Source: a virus | Lineage: Duplodnaviria > Caudoviricetes | Virus record (IMG/VR): IMGVR_UViG_3300004461_001625 | Coordinates: 1-61,990 of that record | Reading direction: 5' to 3' (one strand) | DNA length: 61,990 bases | The notes under the pieces: model-generated | The model's input: only the letters and a program-made list of their open reading frames with translations | What the model was told of the DNA's origin: nothing | Databases searched by the model: none | Shown: positions 20,222 through 24,706 of the stretch, one piece after another | Layout of the letters: the number at the start of each line of letters is the position of its first letter | Position numbering within the stretch: position 1 is the stretch's first letter | Position numbers and translations under genes: made by a program

Positions 20222-21016
20222 ATGCAAAAGAGAAGGACTGTTAGAAAAATTATACAGGAACCTAATGCTATTGAATATAAGACTAATATTCAACGTAGAA
20301 ATACAAAAGAAGATAAAAGAAGCCCTTTTGTAAAACCACCATCACACTATGTACCAAAAAATATAGAATTACAAAATGCATCACAGCCTTTAATGACTAA
20401 AATAGTTTATGCCACAGTTCCTAAATTATATGATGGAGAAACTATTTATATTATTGGAGGTGGCCCGTCATTAAAAAACTTTAAATTTGAAAGTTTGCAT
20501 GGCTGTAGAACCATTGCTATTAATAAGGCTATACTTTTTTATCCTGATGCAGATGTTTTATATTGGACCGACGGTAGATTTTATACTTGGTATAAAAATG
20601 AAGTAGATAATTATAAAGGATTAAAATATTCTTTAAAGGGTGGTGCCCAATATACACGAGATATTAATATTCTTAAGAAAGGAGAAGCACATGGCTTGTC
20701 AAAAGATCCTCAAACATTATCTCATGGTTTTAATAGTGGTTATGCAGCTATTAATTTAGCGTATCACCTAGGAGCAAAAAGAATAATACTATTAGGGTTT
20801 GATATGGGTAGTGATGGAACATTAACACATTTTCATGATGGATACCCAAGCAGGTCTACAGGTGAAGCTATTTATAGAGATAGATTTATACCTTCATTTA
20901 ATGAATTAAAGACTGATATTAAAGAACTTAATTTAACTATATTAAATGCATCACCCTATAGTAAGTTAAATGTATTTCCAAAAATTACGTTAGATCAGGC
21001 ATTAAGTTTTAGATGA
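20222..21016 (+). CDS. Maf/DUF115-like (sialyltransferase-fold) putative glycosyltransferase
   Basis: IIGGGPSL, IAINKA, NSGYAAINLAYHLGAKRIILLGFDM, HFH, ILNAS. Confidence 0.6.
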   Translation: MQKRRTVRKIIQEPNAIEYKTNIQRRNTKEDKRSPFVKPPSHYVPKNIELQNASQPLMTKIVYATVPKLYDGETIYIIGGGPSLKNFKFESLHGCRTIAINKAILFYPDADVLYWTDGRFYTWYKNEVDNYKGLKYSLKGGAQYTRDINILKKGEAHGLSKDPQTLSHGFNSGYAAINLAYHLGAKRIILLGFDMGSDGTLTHFHDGYPSRSTGEAIYRDRFIPSFNELKTDIKELNLTILNASPYSKLNVFPKITLDQALSFR

Positions 21017-21493
21017 TCGTTTAGCATAGGACATAAACTCTCTTTGTTCTTTTTTAAGGAGGTGTTTACAGTGTTTAGTAAATCTAATAGATGTATCTAT
21101 AATTCTACCATCTACACTTCTGTTCCGTGAGTTATGGGCTTTAGAACATTTACTACAAACAAAATTCTCCACCTTTTTAGAATCCATTCTAGATTTAATA
21201 GGAACTTTACAAATACCACAATTCCAATCAATAAGATCTGCATCTTTTTCTAATTCTTTAAGTGTGGTAAATGTTTCTCTGAAAGGATTCCAAATAGCTT
21301 TATTAACATTCTTTTCATGGCCATTCATATCCTCTACTTTAAATATAACTTCAAAGGCTTGAGTATCAGACTCTAACCATTTCATATGACGGTTATTTAA
21401 AAGCAATTTTTGTTTTAAAGGTGGTAGATTTTCTAAAAGAATTCCATACCGCCTTTTATACCATCCGAAATTTATTTTTCTAACCTTATACAT
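21002..21493 (-). CDS. hypothetical protein with a C4 zinc-ribbon motif
   Basis: CGIC...CSKC; start taken as MYKVRK to avoid a long overlap with the upstream gene. Confidence 0.6.
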   Translation of the reverse strand: MYKVRKINFGWYKRRYGILLENLPPLKQKLLLNNRHMKWLESDTQAFEVIFKVEDMNGHEKNVNKAIWNPFRETFTTLKELEKDADLIDWNCGICKVPIKSRMDSKKVENFVCSKCSKAHNSRNRSVDGRIIDTSIRFTKHCKHLLKKEQREFMSYAKRSSKT

Positions 21494-21497
21494 TATC

Positions 21498-22562
21498 TTA
21501 AGCAAGTTTTCTAATAGGATGTCTATGTTTATCTTTTGGCCATTCCACAACCCCATCCTTAAAATAATAAACATGAGATCTATTTTCATGTGAAACTAAA
21601 TTTTCAGCTTGATGTAACCATAGATGATAATACTTTTTATAATTACTTAAATGACAAATTTGACTAAACCAATTAACACTACTTAGTCTACCTAAAAGAT
21701 ATTTAGATTTCATAAGTATAAGTAAATCTAAAACAGCATCTTGGTAAAATAATGGATCACGAAATGCGGCTTGTAAACTATTTACTCCTTCTCCTCCTTG
21801 AAATTCTTTTTGAGAAAGATCATTAGAAGATTCATTTAGATATTTACTATCTCGCCATATAAGCTTGTGTTTTTTATTAGAAAATTCTTTTTGTAATGAT
21901 AGTGCGTCTTCTCTGTTATCTGTGGCTACATAAATATAATCTACTTCAGGATTTTCAGAAAGTGCCCGTTTGATAAGTTCTTTATATTTTTTAAATACTT
22001 CACGATTGTAATCTTTAAATAATTTAATTTTACCTTCTTTAGATAAATTACTATCAGAGTCTTTTCTTAGTTTACTTACAGTATTAACATCAGTCATTCT
22101 TAAATGAATTCCTAAAACATTGGTAGAATTATTAAAATTATTCTCATAGAATAAATTTGCATTTTCTATAAGCTCAGGTTTAAATTTTATTTGTTTAGAG
22201 GTTTCACGAGCAAGTTTCATATAGGTAGCTAAATCTTCATAATACGTAACATGAAGATTTGTATATGGTCCTTGAGTATTTTTTTGATCTTGGAATGGAA
22301 TAGGTTCTTGGTCGAGTATAGAATCAAAAAAGTTATGGTGTGATAGCGACATAAATGAAGTAGCACCACCAGTAGCTGTAACTGGTCTAATAGAAAAATA
22401 AGGAACTTCTCTCGGATTATAAAAAGAGTTTAATTGTTTACCATCAATTATCATATTTGCTGTATCTATTGACATTATATTATCTCGTCTCATTAAATAT
22501 TCCATTAATATCATAAAGTGAGAAAATATACCACCTCCACCAGTCCTAATAATTTGCTTCAT
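21498..22562 (-). CDS. NodZ/GT23-like fucosyltransferase-family glycosyltransferase
   Basis: GGGIFS, LGIHLRMTD, IYVATDN, DLLILMKSKYLLGRLSSV. Confidence 0.75.
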   Translation of the reverse strand: MKQIIRTGGGGIFSHFMILMEYLMRRDNIMSIDTANMIIDGKQLNSFYNPREVPYFSIRPVTATGGATSFMSLSHHNFFDSILDQEPIPFQDQKNTQGPYTNLHVTYYEDLATYMKLARETSKQIKFKPELIENANLFYENNFNNSTNVLGIHLRMTDVNTVSKLRKDSDSNLSKEGKIKLFKDYNREVFKKYKELIKRALSENPEVDYIYVATDNREDALSLQKEFSNKKHKLIWRDSKYLNESSNDLSQKEFQGGEGVNSLQAAFRDPLFYQDAVLDLLILMKSKYLLGRLSSVNWFSQICHLSNYKKYYHLWLHQAENLVSHENRSHVYYFKDGVVEWPKDKHRHPIRKLA

Positions 22563-22570
22563 AATTGTTA

Positions 22571-23239
22571 TTATAAATTATTCCAGTGATTAAGAATATG
22601 TTTTAATTCTGTATTGGCTAATTCTACTTGAGAAGGTGTCCATACAGATTCCCACGTACTTAAACCGTTACCTACATGATTTCCATGAATATGTGTTCCA
22701 TCTTCCCATGAATGAAAATCTTTATATTTTGATTGTATAGATTTTATTGATTCTTTAGAATATTCCTTTTTAATTAAATCTCTAATTTCATTATTAATTT
22801 TACCATTAAAAGATTTTTCTAAAATATTAAATAAGTAATCAAAATCTTCATGCCAATTTTCATATTTTAAAACTATTTTATTTTCATTTTCATTTTCACA
22901 TTGAATAATATCCCAATAAGTTGGAATTATCCATTGACGAGATATAAATTTAATTCTTGATTCAACACTTATTAATGGCTCATTTCGATTATTAAAATCA
23001 TCTTCATATAATCTTATAAATGAAATGACTACATCCCTCGGATCTCGCCATGTAGTAATTAAATAAGAATCTTTATTAGATATCTTTTCCCAAGAATGCG
23101 CACCTTTACCAGGTGTTATATCATAGCGATAATCCCAATCCTTAAAACATCTATATTCATTAAATAATTTATTAAGAATTAATCGAAGAACAGTAGTTCC
23201 AGATCTCATCATACTTTTTTGTATTAAGGTTCTTTTCAT
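22571..23239 (-). CDS. PAPS-dependent sulfotransferase
   Basis: 5'-PSB MRSGTTVL, 3'-PB RDPRDVVIS, LKYE. Confidence 0.8.
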   Translation of the reverse strand: MKRTLIQKSMMRSGTTVLRLILNKLFNEYRCFKDWDYRYDITPGKGAHSWEKISNKDSYLITTWRDPRDVVISFIRLYEDDFNNRNEPLISVESRIKFISRQWIIPTYWDIIQCENENENKIVLKYENWHEDFDYLFNILEKSFNGKINNEIRDLIKKEYSKESIKSIQSKYKDFHSWEDGTHIHGNHVGNGLSTWESVWTPSQVELANTELKHILNHWNNL

Positions 23240-23265: not shown

Positions 23266-23294
23266 ACAAAAGAGCTAAAGTAGCCCTTTTTTGT
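23266..23294 (-). terminator. hairpin, possible terminator, downstream of the Cys-rich micro-ORF
   Basis: AAAAGGGCTA-CTT-TAGCTCTTTT-GT on the minus strand. Confidence 0.5.
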
Positions 23295-23318: not shown

Positions 23319-23384
23319 TTAACAGTTACAACATGTACAATCACATGATGAACCACAGTTACATACTTTACAATCGCATTTCAT
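23319..23384 (-). CDS. metallothionein-like micro-protein MKCDCKVCNCGSSCDCTCCNC (21 aa, 9 Cys; not in the ORF track)
   Basis: ATG..TAA frame made of CxC/CC motifs, 14 nt after the previous stop, A/T-rich leader like other genes here. Confidence 0.7.
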   Translation of the reverse strand: MKCDCKVCNCGSSCDCTCCNC

Positions 23385-23398
23385 ATTAATAATTATTT

Positions 23399-24604
23399 TT
23401 ACAGGGTTTTTCTTAATCTTGCAAATTTCTGAGAAACAGATTCAGCTACATAATCAAAAGATTCTGGTATTTTACCTTTAGTTGCTTTAACATCTGAAAA
23501 CATGTATTCTCGCATTTTATCTTTTCTTGCATCAGCTAATGAATTTTCCCACCCGTTAATAGTATCTTCTATATCTCTTTTCATTACTCTTTTCATCTTA
23601 AGTCTTTTCAGAGCTAATGTTTTAAGTTCTTTTTCATCAGGTGCCTGGATACCTTTACGAATACCTTTTCTAATATCATCTAATAACATATTAGTAAGTT
23701 GATCGGCGGTATACATACCTTCATTAACAGCATTAGCCTCAGATTCAAATACAGACAATTCAGATTCTATAATAGCAACATATTTATCATCTAAGAAAGA
23801 TTCCCATGATTCTGCTTGTAAGCTATCTATTTTTTGTTGATATTTTTTTTTCTTTTCTTCGTCATCGGTTTTATCTAAAAGGTCTTGGTATCTTTTAAGT
23901 TTTCCTTCTTTACTATTTTTAGCCTTTTGTTCAGGTGTTAGTTCAGTTTGACCAGTTTGTTTAGTATCATCTGTCTTTGGTTTTTCCTCTGTCTTTGGTT
24001 TTTCCTCTGCTGCTGGAGTTTTCTCTGCTGCTGGAGTTTTCTCTGCTGCTGGAGTATCATCTGTCTTTGGTTTACCATCTGTCTTTGGCTTACCTTCTCC
24101 TGCATCAAATGCAGGACCGTCATCTCCTTTTTTCTTTTCAGTTGATTCATAATCTGCTAATGCCTTTTGTTGGCCTGCAGCATCTGTTGCTAATTCCTTT
24201 TGTTTAATCTTTAATTGTTTAGCTTCTTCTCCAGTTGCAGCCTTAAGAGCAATTTGATTAGCAGCCAATGAAGCTTTAGTTTTGGCTAATTGAGCAACTC
24301 TTTTTAAACCTGTAGTTGTAGCAAGATCAGACATTCTTTGTGCTACATTTGATGCTGCATCTTTTAGTGCAGCATTTTTAGCTTTATTTGCTTGATTTAA
24401 AACTTCAATCTTTTCTTTAGGTAAATCAGCAGCTTTACCCTTTTCTTTTCTCTTTGCAAAATCTACATCATTAAGTGCTTGTGCTACTTTAGCTTTTTGA
24501 TATTTCTTTGCATTGTTTTTAATTTTTTTCCACTTAATTGGATTCTTAACGGCATCTATTAATGCTTCGTTAACAAATTCACTATATGTCTTTAATTTTG
24601 CCAT
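23399..24604 (-). CDS. Lys/Ala/Glu-rich protein, probable internal head protein
   Basis: Downstream of the capsid gene with a late-class motif; N-terminal KTYSEFVNE; coiled coil plus low-complexity repeats. Confidence 0.5.
   Translation of the reverse strand: MAKLKTYSEFVNEALIDAVKNPIKWKKIKNNAKKYQKAKVAQALNDVDFAKRKEKGKAADLPKEKIEVLNQANKAKNAALKDAASNVAQRMSDLATTTGLKRVAQLAKTKASLAANQIALKAATGEEAKQLKIKQKELATDAAGQQKALADYESTEKKKGDDGPAFDAGEGKPKTDGKPKTDDTPAAEKTPAAEKTPAAEEKPKTEEKPKTDDTKQTGQTELTPEQKAKNSKEGKLKRYQDLLDKTDDEEKKKKYQQKIDSLQAESWESFLDDKYVAIIESELSVFESEANAVNEGMYTADQLTNMLLDDIRKGIRKGIQAPDEKELKTLALKRLKMKRVMKRDIEDTINGWENSLADARKDKMREYMFSDVKATKGKIPESFDYVAESVSQKFARLRKTL
23965..24095 (-). repeat. 18-nt period tandem repeats encoding TPAAEK x3 flanked by KPKT(D/E) units
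   Basis: ctctgctgctggagt at 24005, 24023 and 24041; ctgtctttgg at 23971, 23989, 24061 and 24079. Confidence 0.9.
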
Positions 24605-24651: not shown

Positions 24652-24678
24652 AAAAAAGCCACCCCGAAGAGTGGCTTT
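24652..24678 (-). terminator. intrinsic terminator after the major capsid gene (UUCG loop)
   Basis: GCCACTC-TTCG-GGGTGGC-TTTTTT on the minus strand. Confidence 0.9.
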
Positions 24679-24706
24679 CTATATAAAGATATTACTTTGA
24701 TATAAA

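What the first reader, a model, noticed from the sequence alone, without database searches (positions are those of the whole stretch)
23319..23384. Unannotated 21-aa metallothionein-like micro-gene
Seen: ATG AAA TGC GAT TGT ... TGT AAC TGT TAA encodes MKCDCKVCNCGSSCDCTCCNC, with 9 of 21 residues Cys in CxC/CC motifs and no aromatic residues. It starts 14 nt after the previous stop and is followed by a hairpin. Known: this composition is typical of metallothioneins, and CNCGSSCDC resembles short fungal Cu-metallothioneins. Inference: a phage-encoded Cu/Zn/Cd chelator or redox buffer, co-transcribed with a late head-associated gene and too short for standard gene callers.
Basis: partly seen in the sequence, partly recalled or inferred. 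Interest (0 to 1): 0.78.

Follow-up and report, generated by a model that had tools for sequence, protein, structure and literature searches.

The report
Conserved nine-cysteine micro-gene of marine phages
A real but never annotated 21-codon phage gene encodes a peptide that is 43% cysteine, belongs to a large family in marine phages, and most likely wraps around a small cluster of metal ions the way metallothioneins do.

Summary
The ORF exists as described, on the minus strand (23384..23319): MKCDCKVCNCGSSCDCTCCNC, 14 nt after the stop of a 401-aa gene and followed by a terminator-like hairpin. It is a gene, not chance. Loci found through neighbouring genes alone, without reference to the peptide, carry it in 20 of 40 and 24 of 71 cases. 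Every copy keeps all nine Cys, the spacing CxCxxCxCxxxCxCxCCxC and a stop directly after the last Cys. Every Cys codon mixes TGT and TGC. Non-Cys positions drift (pN/pS 0.74-0.97) but include no aromatic residue in 679 positions (70 expected). No Pfam, NCBIfam, PDB or 1.84-billion-protein search finds a relative. Best reading: a minimal metallothionein-like metal-thiolate peptide acting in trans. Metal binding is inferred, not shown. A cysteine-sensing leader peptide and a RiPP precursor are disfavoured. The window is a fragment (CheckV 16%) of a huge marine phage. In other phages the gene often abuts a mini-cupin gene.

The parts
23319..23384 (-). Micro-gene: 21 codons plus TAA, MKCDCKVCNCGSSCDCTCCNC, made of two 8-residue Cys modules (CxCxxCxC, xxx, CxCxCCxC)
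   Evidence: Conserved in 20 of 40 evaluable synteny loci. Member of a family of 179 distinct peptides.
23385..23398 (-). 14-nt A/T-only spacer (AAAATAATTATTAA-T) between the upstream stop and the ATG. It has no SD motif; its 14 bases are invariant in the aligned relatives, apart from a 1-nt insertion in 2 of them
   Evidence: alignment (17 distinct sequences). SD-less starts are the rule in this genome.
23399..24604 (-). Upstream 401-aa gene (here called c5): Lys/Glu/Ala-rich with PKT/PAAEKT repeats, no Cys, and no Pfam, PHROG or NCBIfam match. It lies directly after the gp23-like capsid gene. Scaffold-like in composition (inference)
   Evidence: 45 related loci in IMG/VR.
23268..23290 (-). 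Terminator-like hairpin about 28 nt after the micro-gene's stop
   Evidence: 10 pairs, T-rich tail; z = -3.5.
24653..24680 (-). Terminator-like hairpin between the capsid gene and c5. Together with the hairpin at 23268..23290 it brackets a two-gene unit, c5 plus the micro-gene
   Evidence: 12 pairs, 5 GC; sequence read.

Best explanation
The ORF is a translated gene for a 21-residue, nine-cysteine peptide that acts in trans in the infected cell. With nine invariant thiols in CxC/CC motifs, no aromatic or His residues and almost no hydrophobic ones, and no signal peptide, it most likely folds only around a metal-thiolate cluster. By analogy with the nine-Cys beta-domain of vertebrate metallothionein, that would be three divalent ions (Zn/Cd/Co) on nine Cys, or several Cu(I); this analogy is recalled knowledge. 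The peptide would then serve as a minimal metallothionein-like metal buffer, store or chaperone during infection. SHOWN: the gene is real, it is under selection as a peptide, and it is widespread and mobile among marine phages. INFERRED: metal binding, stoichiometry and physiological role.
For: 1) Conservation found without reference to the peptide. Loci fetched through the upstream 401-aa protein carry the ORF in 20 of 40 evaluable cases. Loci fetched through an unrelated FAD-oxidoreductase gene carry it in 24 of 71. A relaxed scan (at least 5 Cys in 21 residues) found no copy with a lost or shifted Cys in either set. 2) Coding signature. Every Cys codon mixes TGT and TGC: 14-38 TGC among 106 distinct core DNAs. 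On the antisense strand these changes would be Thr/Ala replacements. 3) Selection on the peptide's chemistry. Non-Cys codons drift (pN/pS 0.74-0.97). Yet 0 of 679 unconstrained positions is F, W or Y, against 70 expected from the window's proteome, and 25 are L/I/M/F/W/Y against 195 expected. Gly after the fourth Cys occurs in 77 of 97 cores, and Ser before the fifth in 82 of 97. 4) All copies stop directly after the last Cys, and only 0-3 residues usually precede the first Cys. 5) Family size and modularity. There are 179 distinct peptides from IMG/VR and marine metagenomes. Three-module 36-aa variants add one more CxCxxCxC unit. Modular growth is typical of metallothioneins (recalled). 6) The position within operons varies: before a terminator, overlapping the next gene, or 11 nt ahead of the next gene. 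This fits a trans-acting product. 7) An odd, invariant number of Cys and the lack of a signal peptide argue against a disulfide-knotted secreted peptide (inference). 8) Circumstantial link to metals. In 34 of 190 contexts the gene abuts or overlaps a roughly 87-aa protein with invariant His/Asp/His. That protein folds as a cupin (pLDDT 89; Foldseek E about 1e-4 to cupin structures). In two loci (L285, L506) the two ORFs are in one frame with no stop between them. 9) Weak expression hint. A 196-nt contig from a marine metatranscriptome (95% identical) covers 23354..23549, that is the 3' end of c5 plus the first 31 nt of the micro-gene.
Against: No metal-binding measurement exists and no tool here could model one. 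No sequence relationship to any known metallothionein family was found: Pfam, NCBIfam and PDB gave nothing at E<=10. phmmer of the 36-aa variant against 1.84 billion representatives gave nothing. The language-model atlas gave only weak leads: best score 0.83 to unnamed clusters, and a dipteran metallothionein cluster at 0.81, both below the 0.9 that counts. Invariance of Cys in the pattern-derived hits is true by construction; only the two synteny sets are unbiased. Near-neutral pN/pS at non-Cys sites is also what a pure Cys-codon sensor would show. The RNA evidence comes from contigs in RNA libraries that may contain DNA. The gene is patchy. It is absent from half of the relatives, from Flavobacterium phage immuto, and from four other deposited genomes related to the window or to other carrier contigs by their large terminase. 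So it is dispensable. No metal-homeostasis genes (transporters, sensors) were seen beside it.
Confidence: 0.55

Rival explanations
1. Thiol or redox peptide, or modified-peptide precursor. The Cys-rich peptide would be a substrate or partner of a phage enzyme, such as the FAD-dependent oxidoreductase or the mini-cupin that often flank it. It would act as a redox buffer or disulfide relay, or be post-translationally modified in the manner of a RiPP.
For: In one abundant phage lineage the gene lies about 110 nt upstream of a 430-520-aa FAD/NAD(P) oxidoreductase. In 7 of 71 such loci a different Cys-containing micro-ORF (MKEKICxxICKITFNK..CC) lies upstream of the same enzyme, in two of them at the same position as the nine-Cys gene. 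The C-terminal residue is invariably Cys. A cupin gene abuts the micro-gene in 34 of 190 contexts.
Against: There is no leader region: 0-3 residues before the first Cys. In that lineage a conserved hairpin, a terminator and a promoter-like GTATATTAA box separate the peptide gene from the oxidoreductase, so they are different transcription units. 38 of 71 oxidoreductase loci have no Cys-rich ORF upstream. The window's 62 kb holds neither enzyme. No radical-SAM, lanthipeptide or other maturase family was seen among the neighbour clusters annotated. NCBIfam has no RiPP-precursor match.
Confidence: 0.15
2. Metal-stabilised mini-domain that binds and inhibits or redirects a host protein, for example an anti-defence or take-over factor. 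Metal binding would be structural rather than the function itself.
For: The gene is accessory, patchy and single-copy, and sits in variable regions of several phage lineages. That is the usual place of host-interaction genes (established knowledge of phage genome organisation).
Against: The surface residues between the Cys drift almost neutrally, which fits poorly with a specific protein-protein interface. No partner is indicated by any result here.
Confidence: 0.12
3. Cysteine-sensing leader peptide. Ribosomes would stall on the nine Cys codons when Cys-tRNA is scarce and thereby control the terminator or the gene downstream. In the window that gene is a sulfotransferase, so the story is tempting.
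For: The arrangement is a short ORF rich in one codon type, then a hairpin with a T-run, then a sulfur-related gene. Polycysteine short ORFs do act as Cys-responsive attenuators in mycobacteria (bioRxiv 10.1101/834739, abstract read). Non-Cys codons are nearly neutral.
Against: The sulfotransferase and fucosyltransferase-like genes are an insertion peculiar to the window. In the 20 relatives that carry the micro-gene, an unrelated 163-aa gene follows it, at 11 nt in 19 of 20 distinct sequences and at 9 nt in L034. Elsewhere the micro-gene is followed by convergent genes, a primase operon or an oxidoreductase. No neighbour is a cysteine-metabolism gene. The window's hairpin starts 28 nt after the stop, outside a terminating ribosome's footprint. 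Exact Cys spacing, fixed length, the stop right after the last Cys and the ban on aromatic residues are not needed by a codon sensor. In the mycobacterial case the short ORF is the first gene of the transcript; here it is second or last.
Confidence: 0.05

Closest known systems
Metallothioneins in the operational sense (small, Cys-rich, aromatic-poor metal-thiolate proteins), especially nine-Cys units such as the vertebrate beta-domain and the very short fungal Cu-metallothioneins (recalled knowledge)
   Same: Very small size, 43% Cys, Cys only in CxC/CC motifs, no aromatic or His residues, variable residues between invariant Cys, and modular expansion in some members.
   Different: No detectable sequence relationship to any curated metallothionein family or to any solved structure. 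It is shorter than any family I can recall, it is encoded by phages, and metal binding is untested.
Bacterial metallothioneins of the BmtA/SmtA type
   Same: Prokaryote-associated, marine, easily missed by gene callers (PMC3323870, passages read). The first module has the same CxCxxCxC spacing as the SmtA N-terminal signature (recalled).
   Different: BmtA has a defined zinc-finger fold spanning residues 7-38, conserved aromatic residues and His ligands (PMC3323870). The phage peptide is 21 aa with none of these.
Polycysteine leaderless short ORFs of mycobacteria (Cys-responsive attenuators)
   Same: Unannotated short ORF dominated by Cys codons (10.1101/834739, abstract).
   Different: Those are the first gene of operons for cysteine metabolism and act in cis through ribosome stalling. 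This ORF follows another gene, sits in unrelated contexts and is constrained as a peptide.
Cys-rich RiPP precursors (SCIFF/ranthipeptide-type, lanthipeptides)
   Same: Short peptides with a Cys-rich C-terminal part (PMC11118758, one passage read).
   Different: No leader peptide and no maturase gene found in the conserved neighbourhoods.

Membership tests
Metallothionein (operational definition) | Low molecular mass | tested here: met
   21 aa in the window. The family is mostly 20-23 aa: 258 of 282 hits.
Metallothionein (operational definition) | High Cys content with Cys in CxC, CC or CxxC arrangements conserved across members | tested here: met
   9 of 21 residues. The pattern CxCxxCxCxxxCxCxCCxC is intact in all copies found through synteny: 20 loci and 24 loci.
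Metallothionein (operational definition) | Aromatic residues absent or scarce | tested here: met
   0 F/W/Y in 679 unconstrained positions against 70 expected. One His among 97 cores.
Metallothionein (operational definition) | Binds metal ions in metal-thiolate clusters (metal content, spectroscopy) | not testable with these tools
   No tool models metal clusters. The peptide is below the 30-residue minimum of the folding and complex tools.
Any curated metallothionein sequence family (Pfam Metallothio_*, NCBIfam) | Significant match to the family profile | tested here: not met
   0 families at E<=10 for 6 members in Pfam and in NCBIfam. The only hint is an atlas cosine of 0.81 to a Metallothio_5 cluster, below the reliable range.
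BmtA/SmtA bacterial metallothionein | Zinc-finger fold (residues 7-38), conserved aromatic residues, His ligands | tested here: not met
   The peptide is 21 aa without His or aromatic residues. Features taken from PMC3323870 passages.
Cys-responsive leader short ORF (attenuator) | First ORF of the transcript, controlling downstream cysteine-metabolism genes through an RNA structure that stalled ribosomes affect | tested here: not met
   It follows another gene at 14 nt or overlaps its stop. Downstream genes differ between contexts and none is for Cys metabolism.
RiPP precursor | Leader or recognition sequence plus a co-located maturase | tested here: inconclusive
   No leader (0-3 residues before the first Cys). 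No known maturase family among annotated neighbours. However, an uncharacterised FAD oxidoreductase and a cupin recur nearby.

The most novel reading that the evidence does not exclude
This would be the first virus-borne metallothionein family and the smallest gene-encoded one: a 20-23-residue M3Cys9-type cluster peptide. Marine phages, probably ones infecting Bacteroidota, would carry it as a mobile single-copy gene to seize or ration scarce Zn/Co/Cd or toxic Cu in the infected cell. In some lineages it may hand metal to an adjacent phage mini-cupin enzyme, with which it is translationally coupled or even fused.
Probability: 0.4. Interest if true: 0.85.

Novelty: new variant of a known kind. 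Interest (0 to 1): 0.72.

Why it matters
Gene callers discard ORFs this short. The exact peptide is absent from a 15-billion-protein collection, and its 36-aa relative has no hit among 1.84 billion representatives. Yet the family is common in marine viral contigs and Tara-type metagenomes, and near-identical DNA of this phage occurs in runs from 13 studies. If it binds metals, phages would be shown to manipulate trace-metal pools of marine heterotrophs with a 66-nt gene, a kind of auxiliary function not recognised so far. The literature I could search holds only one passing mention of metallothioneins as viral candidates in fumarole viromes (PMC13317609, one passage). The peptide would also be a natural minimal scaffold for studying metal-thiolate clusters. 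Even if the role differs, it is a clean example of a strongly selected phage microprotein family that is invisible to standard annotation.

Tried and rejected
Chance ORF: rejected.

Antisense or other-frame coding: rejected, because the TGT/TGC changes are silent only in the stated frame.

Alternative genetic code: the nearest DNA hits are Lak megaphages and a 462-kb uncultured phage, but both relevant stops are TAA and the window's ORFs are intact under table 11, so this was not pursued.

The first degenerate pattern was swamped by poly-Cys readings of trinucleotide repeats. Only 16 of the hits were genuine. Later genome searches found it in 1 of 401 genomes of one order and in 1 of 61 genomes of one family. 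The carrier in both is the one 1.4-Mb genome G001, which was the centre of both searches and is counted in both totals. There the peptide lies between flavodoxin and glyoxalase-family genes.

tblastn of the peptide against 50,697 GenBank phage records found nothing at E<=10; the low-complexity filter may have masked it. Pattern searches of five whole deposited phage genomes related to the carriers were negative. These were Flavobacterium phage immuto with up to 2 mismatches, and LR756500.1, LR756508.1, Microcystis phage Mel-JY01 and Tenacibaculum phage PTm1 with up to 1 mismatch.

Rfam has no family for the conserved hairpin after the gene in other phages.

In one search I at first read the conserved roughly 130 nt after the gene in close relatives as non-coding with a hairpin. 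It is in fact the 5' part of the next gene, so that reading is withdrawn.

RNA libraries: parts of the stretch without cover say nothing. Runs X19 and X20 covered only other parts of the stretch.

Literature: searches for metallothionein with bacteriophage (455 papers, 15 listed), with cyanophage (7 papers), with auxiliary metabolic genes (4 papers), with Bacteroidetes/small protein, with bacterial metallothionein/BmtA, and for cysteine-rich small ORFs in phage genomes turned up no description of this family. Only listings and the cited passages were read. Supplements were not opened.

No structure or complex prediction was possible for a 21-aa peptide, and none was attempted.

Full report
OBSERVATION. 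The ORF is on the minus strand at 23384..23319 and reads MKCDCKVCNCGSSCDCTCCNC-TAA. It starts 14 nt after the TAA of a 401-aa ORF (23399..24604). It is followed, 28 nt after its stop, by a terminator-like hairpin at 23290..23268 (10 pairs, T-rich tail; -15.5 kcal/mol, z = -3.5). A second such hairpin lies between the capsid gene and the 401-aa gene (24680..24653), so the two genes form a bracketed unit. This is the only short ORF in the window with at least 5 Cys and at least 25% Cys. Cys is 0.93% of the window's proteome. No SD motif precedes the ORF, but only 4 of 50 long ORFs here have one.

GENOME CONTEXT. All large ORFs lie on the minus strand. Upstream of the pair are a T4-type portal, a prohead protease and a 640-aa gp23-like capsid protein. 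Downstream are sulfotransferase-like and O-fucosyltransferase-like genes, a 195-aa ORF, a sialyltransferase-like gene on the plus strand, and a clamp loader. The window is a whole IMG/VR record with a CheckV completeness of 16%, which implies a genome of several hundred kb. Its large terminase is closest to a 462-kb uncultured phage (49.5% identity), then to other huge phages, Sphingomonas phage PAU and Tenacibaculum phage PTm1. Near-identical DNA occurs in marine runs from 13 studies. There are no tRNA genes.

IS IT A GENE? I fetched 45 loci through the 401-aa neighbour alone. Of 40 loci that include that gene's end plus flanking DNA, 16 have the micro-ORF within 400 nt and 4 more have it just beyond an inserted ORF, giving 20 of 40. 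All 20 keep nine Cys, 21 codons and a stop after the last Cys, while the residues between the Cys change (for example MKCECKNCGCNKSCDCTCCNC and MNCDCKECNCGASCDCTCCNC). A second, independent synteny set came from a FAD-oxidoreductase gene found beside other family members. It gave 24 canonical copies in 71 evaluable loci. A relaxed scan of that set found no copy with a broken Cys pattern.

Together they yield 179 distinct peptides, of which 258 of 282 hits are 20-23 aa. In these pattern hits the Cys invariance is true by construction. The two synteny sets are the unbiased evidence.

Every Cys codon mixes TGT and TGC. Non-Cys codons have pN/pS of 0.74-0.97. They nevertheless avoid aromatic residues completely (0 of 679 against 70 expected) and avoid most hydrophobic ones (25 against 195 expected). 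This shows selection on the peptide's chemistry, concentrated on the thiols, a Gly and a Ser.

WHERE ELSE. Clustering of neighbour genes shows at least four contexts.

- (A) The window type: capsid gene, 401-aa gene, peptide, 163-aa gene, sialyltransferase-like gene, clamp loader.
- (B) Peptide, then a conserved hairpin, a terminator and a promoter-like box, then a FAD oxidoreductase, a 90-aa gene, an AAA_28 gene and the terminase.
- (C) A GIY-YIG gene, a 261-aa gene, a mini-cupin, the peptide, then small genes and a primase.
- (D) Peptide, terminator, then convergent genes.

The terminase of context B and the primase of context C are 58-62% identical to those of Flavobacterium phage immuto. 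That phage itself lacks the gene, as do four other deposited genomes related to the window or to other carrier contigs by their large terminase. Five contigs of about 156 kb each hold exactly one copy.

One cellular copy was seen, in a 1.4-Mb genome between flavodoxin and glyoxalase-family genes. It is the only match among the 401 genomes searched in its order and among the 61 searched in its family; both counts include that genome itself.

In the relatives that carry the micro-gene, the 163-aa gene starts just after its stop: at 11 nt in 19 of 20 distinct sequences and at 9 nt in L034. The window instead has its own hairpin plus two low-GC transferase genes inserted there.

WHAT IT IS. No family or structure database recognises the peptide: Pfam, NCBIfam and PDB gave nothing at E<=10. 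The exact sequence is not among 15 billion predicted proteins. A natural 36-aa, three-module variant has no phmmer hit among 1.84 billion representatives and only sub-threshold language-model neighbours, one of them a metallothionein cluster at 0.81.

By the operational criteria for metallothioneins the peptide qualifies: tiny size, Cys-rich CxC/CC motifs, no aromatic residues, variable spacers and modular growth. Only the decisive criterion, metal-thiolate clusters, could not be tested. Nine invariant thiols, an odd number, and the lack of any export signal point to a cytoplasmic metal cluster rather than to disulfides. Nine Cys matches an M(II)3 cluster as in the vertebrate beta-domain (recalled knowledge).

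RIVALS. A Cys-sensing leader peptide, as in mycobacteria (10.1101/834739, abstract), is unlikely. The gene is never first in its unit, the genes downstream differ and none concerns cysteine, the window's sulfotransferase is a recent insertion, and fixed spacing and composition are not needed for codon sensing.

A RiPP or redox substrate cannot be excluded, because an uncharacterised FAD oxidoreductase and a cupin recur nearby. Against it, there is no leader, no known maturase, and a terminator separates the peptide from the oxidoreductase.

A metal-stabilised inhibitor of a host protein remains possible.

A LEAD ON METALS. In 34 of 190 contexts the gene's ATG overlaps the stop of a roughly 87-aa protein with invariant His34, Asp36 and His75. 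That protein is confidently predicted (pLDDT 89) to be a cupin; its Foldseek matches include Fe(II) HppE, KdgF and other cupins at E about 1e-4. In L285 and L506 the two reading frames are continuous. This is circumstantial: it covers few independent lineages and does not apply to the window.

EXPRESSION. One 196-nt contig from a marine metatranscriptome (95% identical) spans the junction between the 401-aa gene and the micro-gene. A 62-nt contig from a library only guessed to be RNA lies inside the ORF. DNA carry-over cannot be excluded.

VERDICT. The finding is a new, widespread, unannotated phage microprotein family of metallothionein-like design. I put the probability that it is a real gene at about 0.95 and the probability of metal-thiolate function at about 0.55.

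Noticed in passing
window 21498..23239 (minus): The sulfotransferase-like (222 aa) and O-fucosyltransferase-like (354 aa) genes form a low-GC (24-28%) two-gene insertion with its own upstream hairpin. It is absent from the 20 relatives, where the 163-aa gene (window homologue 21005..21493) follows the micro-gene by 9-11 nt.
   Followed up: partly
L308:744-762 and 29 other loci (alignment A2, columns 49-67): In another phage lineage the micro-gene is followed by a 5-bp stem with an invariant 9-nt loop (ATTCATAGC). Four of the five pairs covary. An intrinsic terminator and a conserved GTATATTAA box come next. There is no Rfam match.
   Followed up: partly
L397 about 1771, L398 about 2424, and L399, L401, L417, L418, L419: A second, unrelated Cys-containing micro-ORF family (28-34 aa, MKEKICxxICKITFNK[VI]CLGWCxxKCC.) lies upstream of the same FAD-oxidoreductase gene. 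In two loci it sits at the same position as the nine-Cys gene.
   Followed up: no
L353:2522-2794 and alignment A3: A roughly 87-aa phage protein family with no Pfam match is predicted to be a mini-cupin with invariant His/Asp/His. Its stop overlaps the micro-gene's ATG in 34 of 190 contexts, and it is in frame with the micro-gene in L285 and L506.
   Followed up: partly
Its only relatives in cultured phages are the 'NAD(FAD)-utilizing dehydrogenases' of Campylobacter phages at about 25% identity.
   Followed up: partly
L289:798-905 (also L481, L494, L559): Natural 36-aa variants carry three Cys modules (13 Cys), that is one extra CxCxxCxC unit at the N-terminus.
   Followed up: partly
window, whole: The record is only about 16% of a genome by CheckV. 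Its terminase and capsid genes are nearest to uncultured huge phages (LR756500.1, 462 kb) and to Lak megaphages. Genes start without SD motifs, as in Bacteroidota, and there are no tRNA genes.
   Followed up: partly
G001:C51:3857-3916 (= L280, L479): A single cellular copy of the peptide gene (MNMKCNCKNCDCSSSCDCSCCDC) lies in a 1.4-Mb bacterial genome between a flavodoxin gene and a secreted glyoxalase-family gene. It is the only match among the 401 order-level and 61 family-level genomes searched, counts that include this genome itself.
   Followed up: partly
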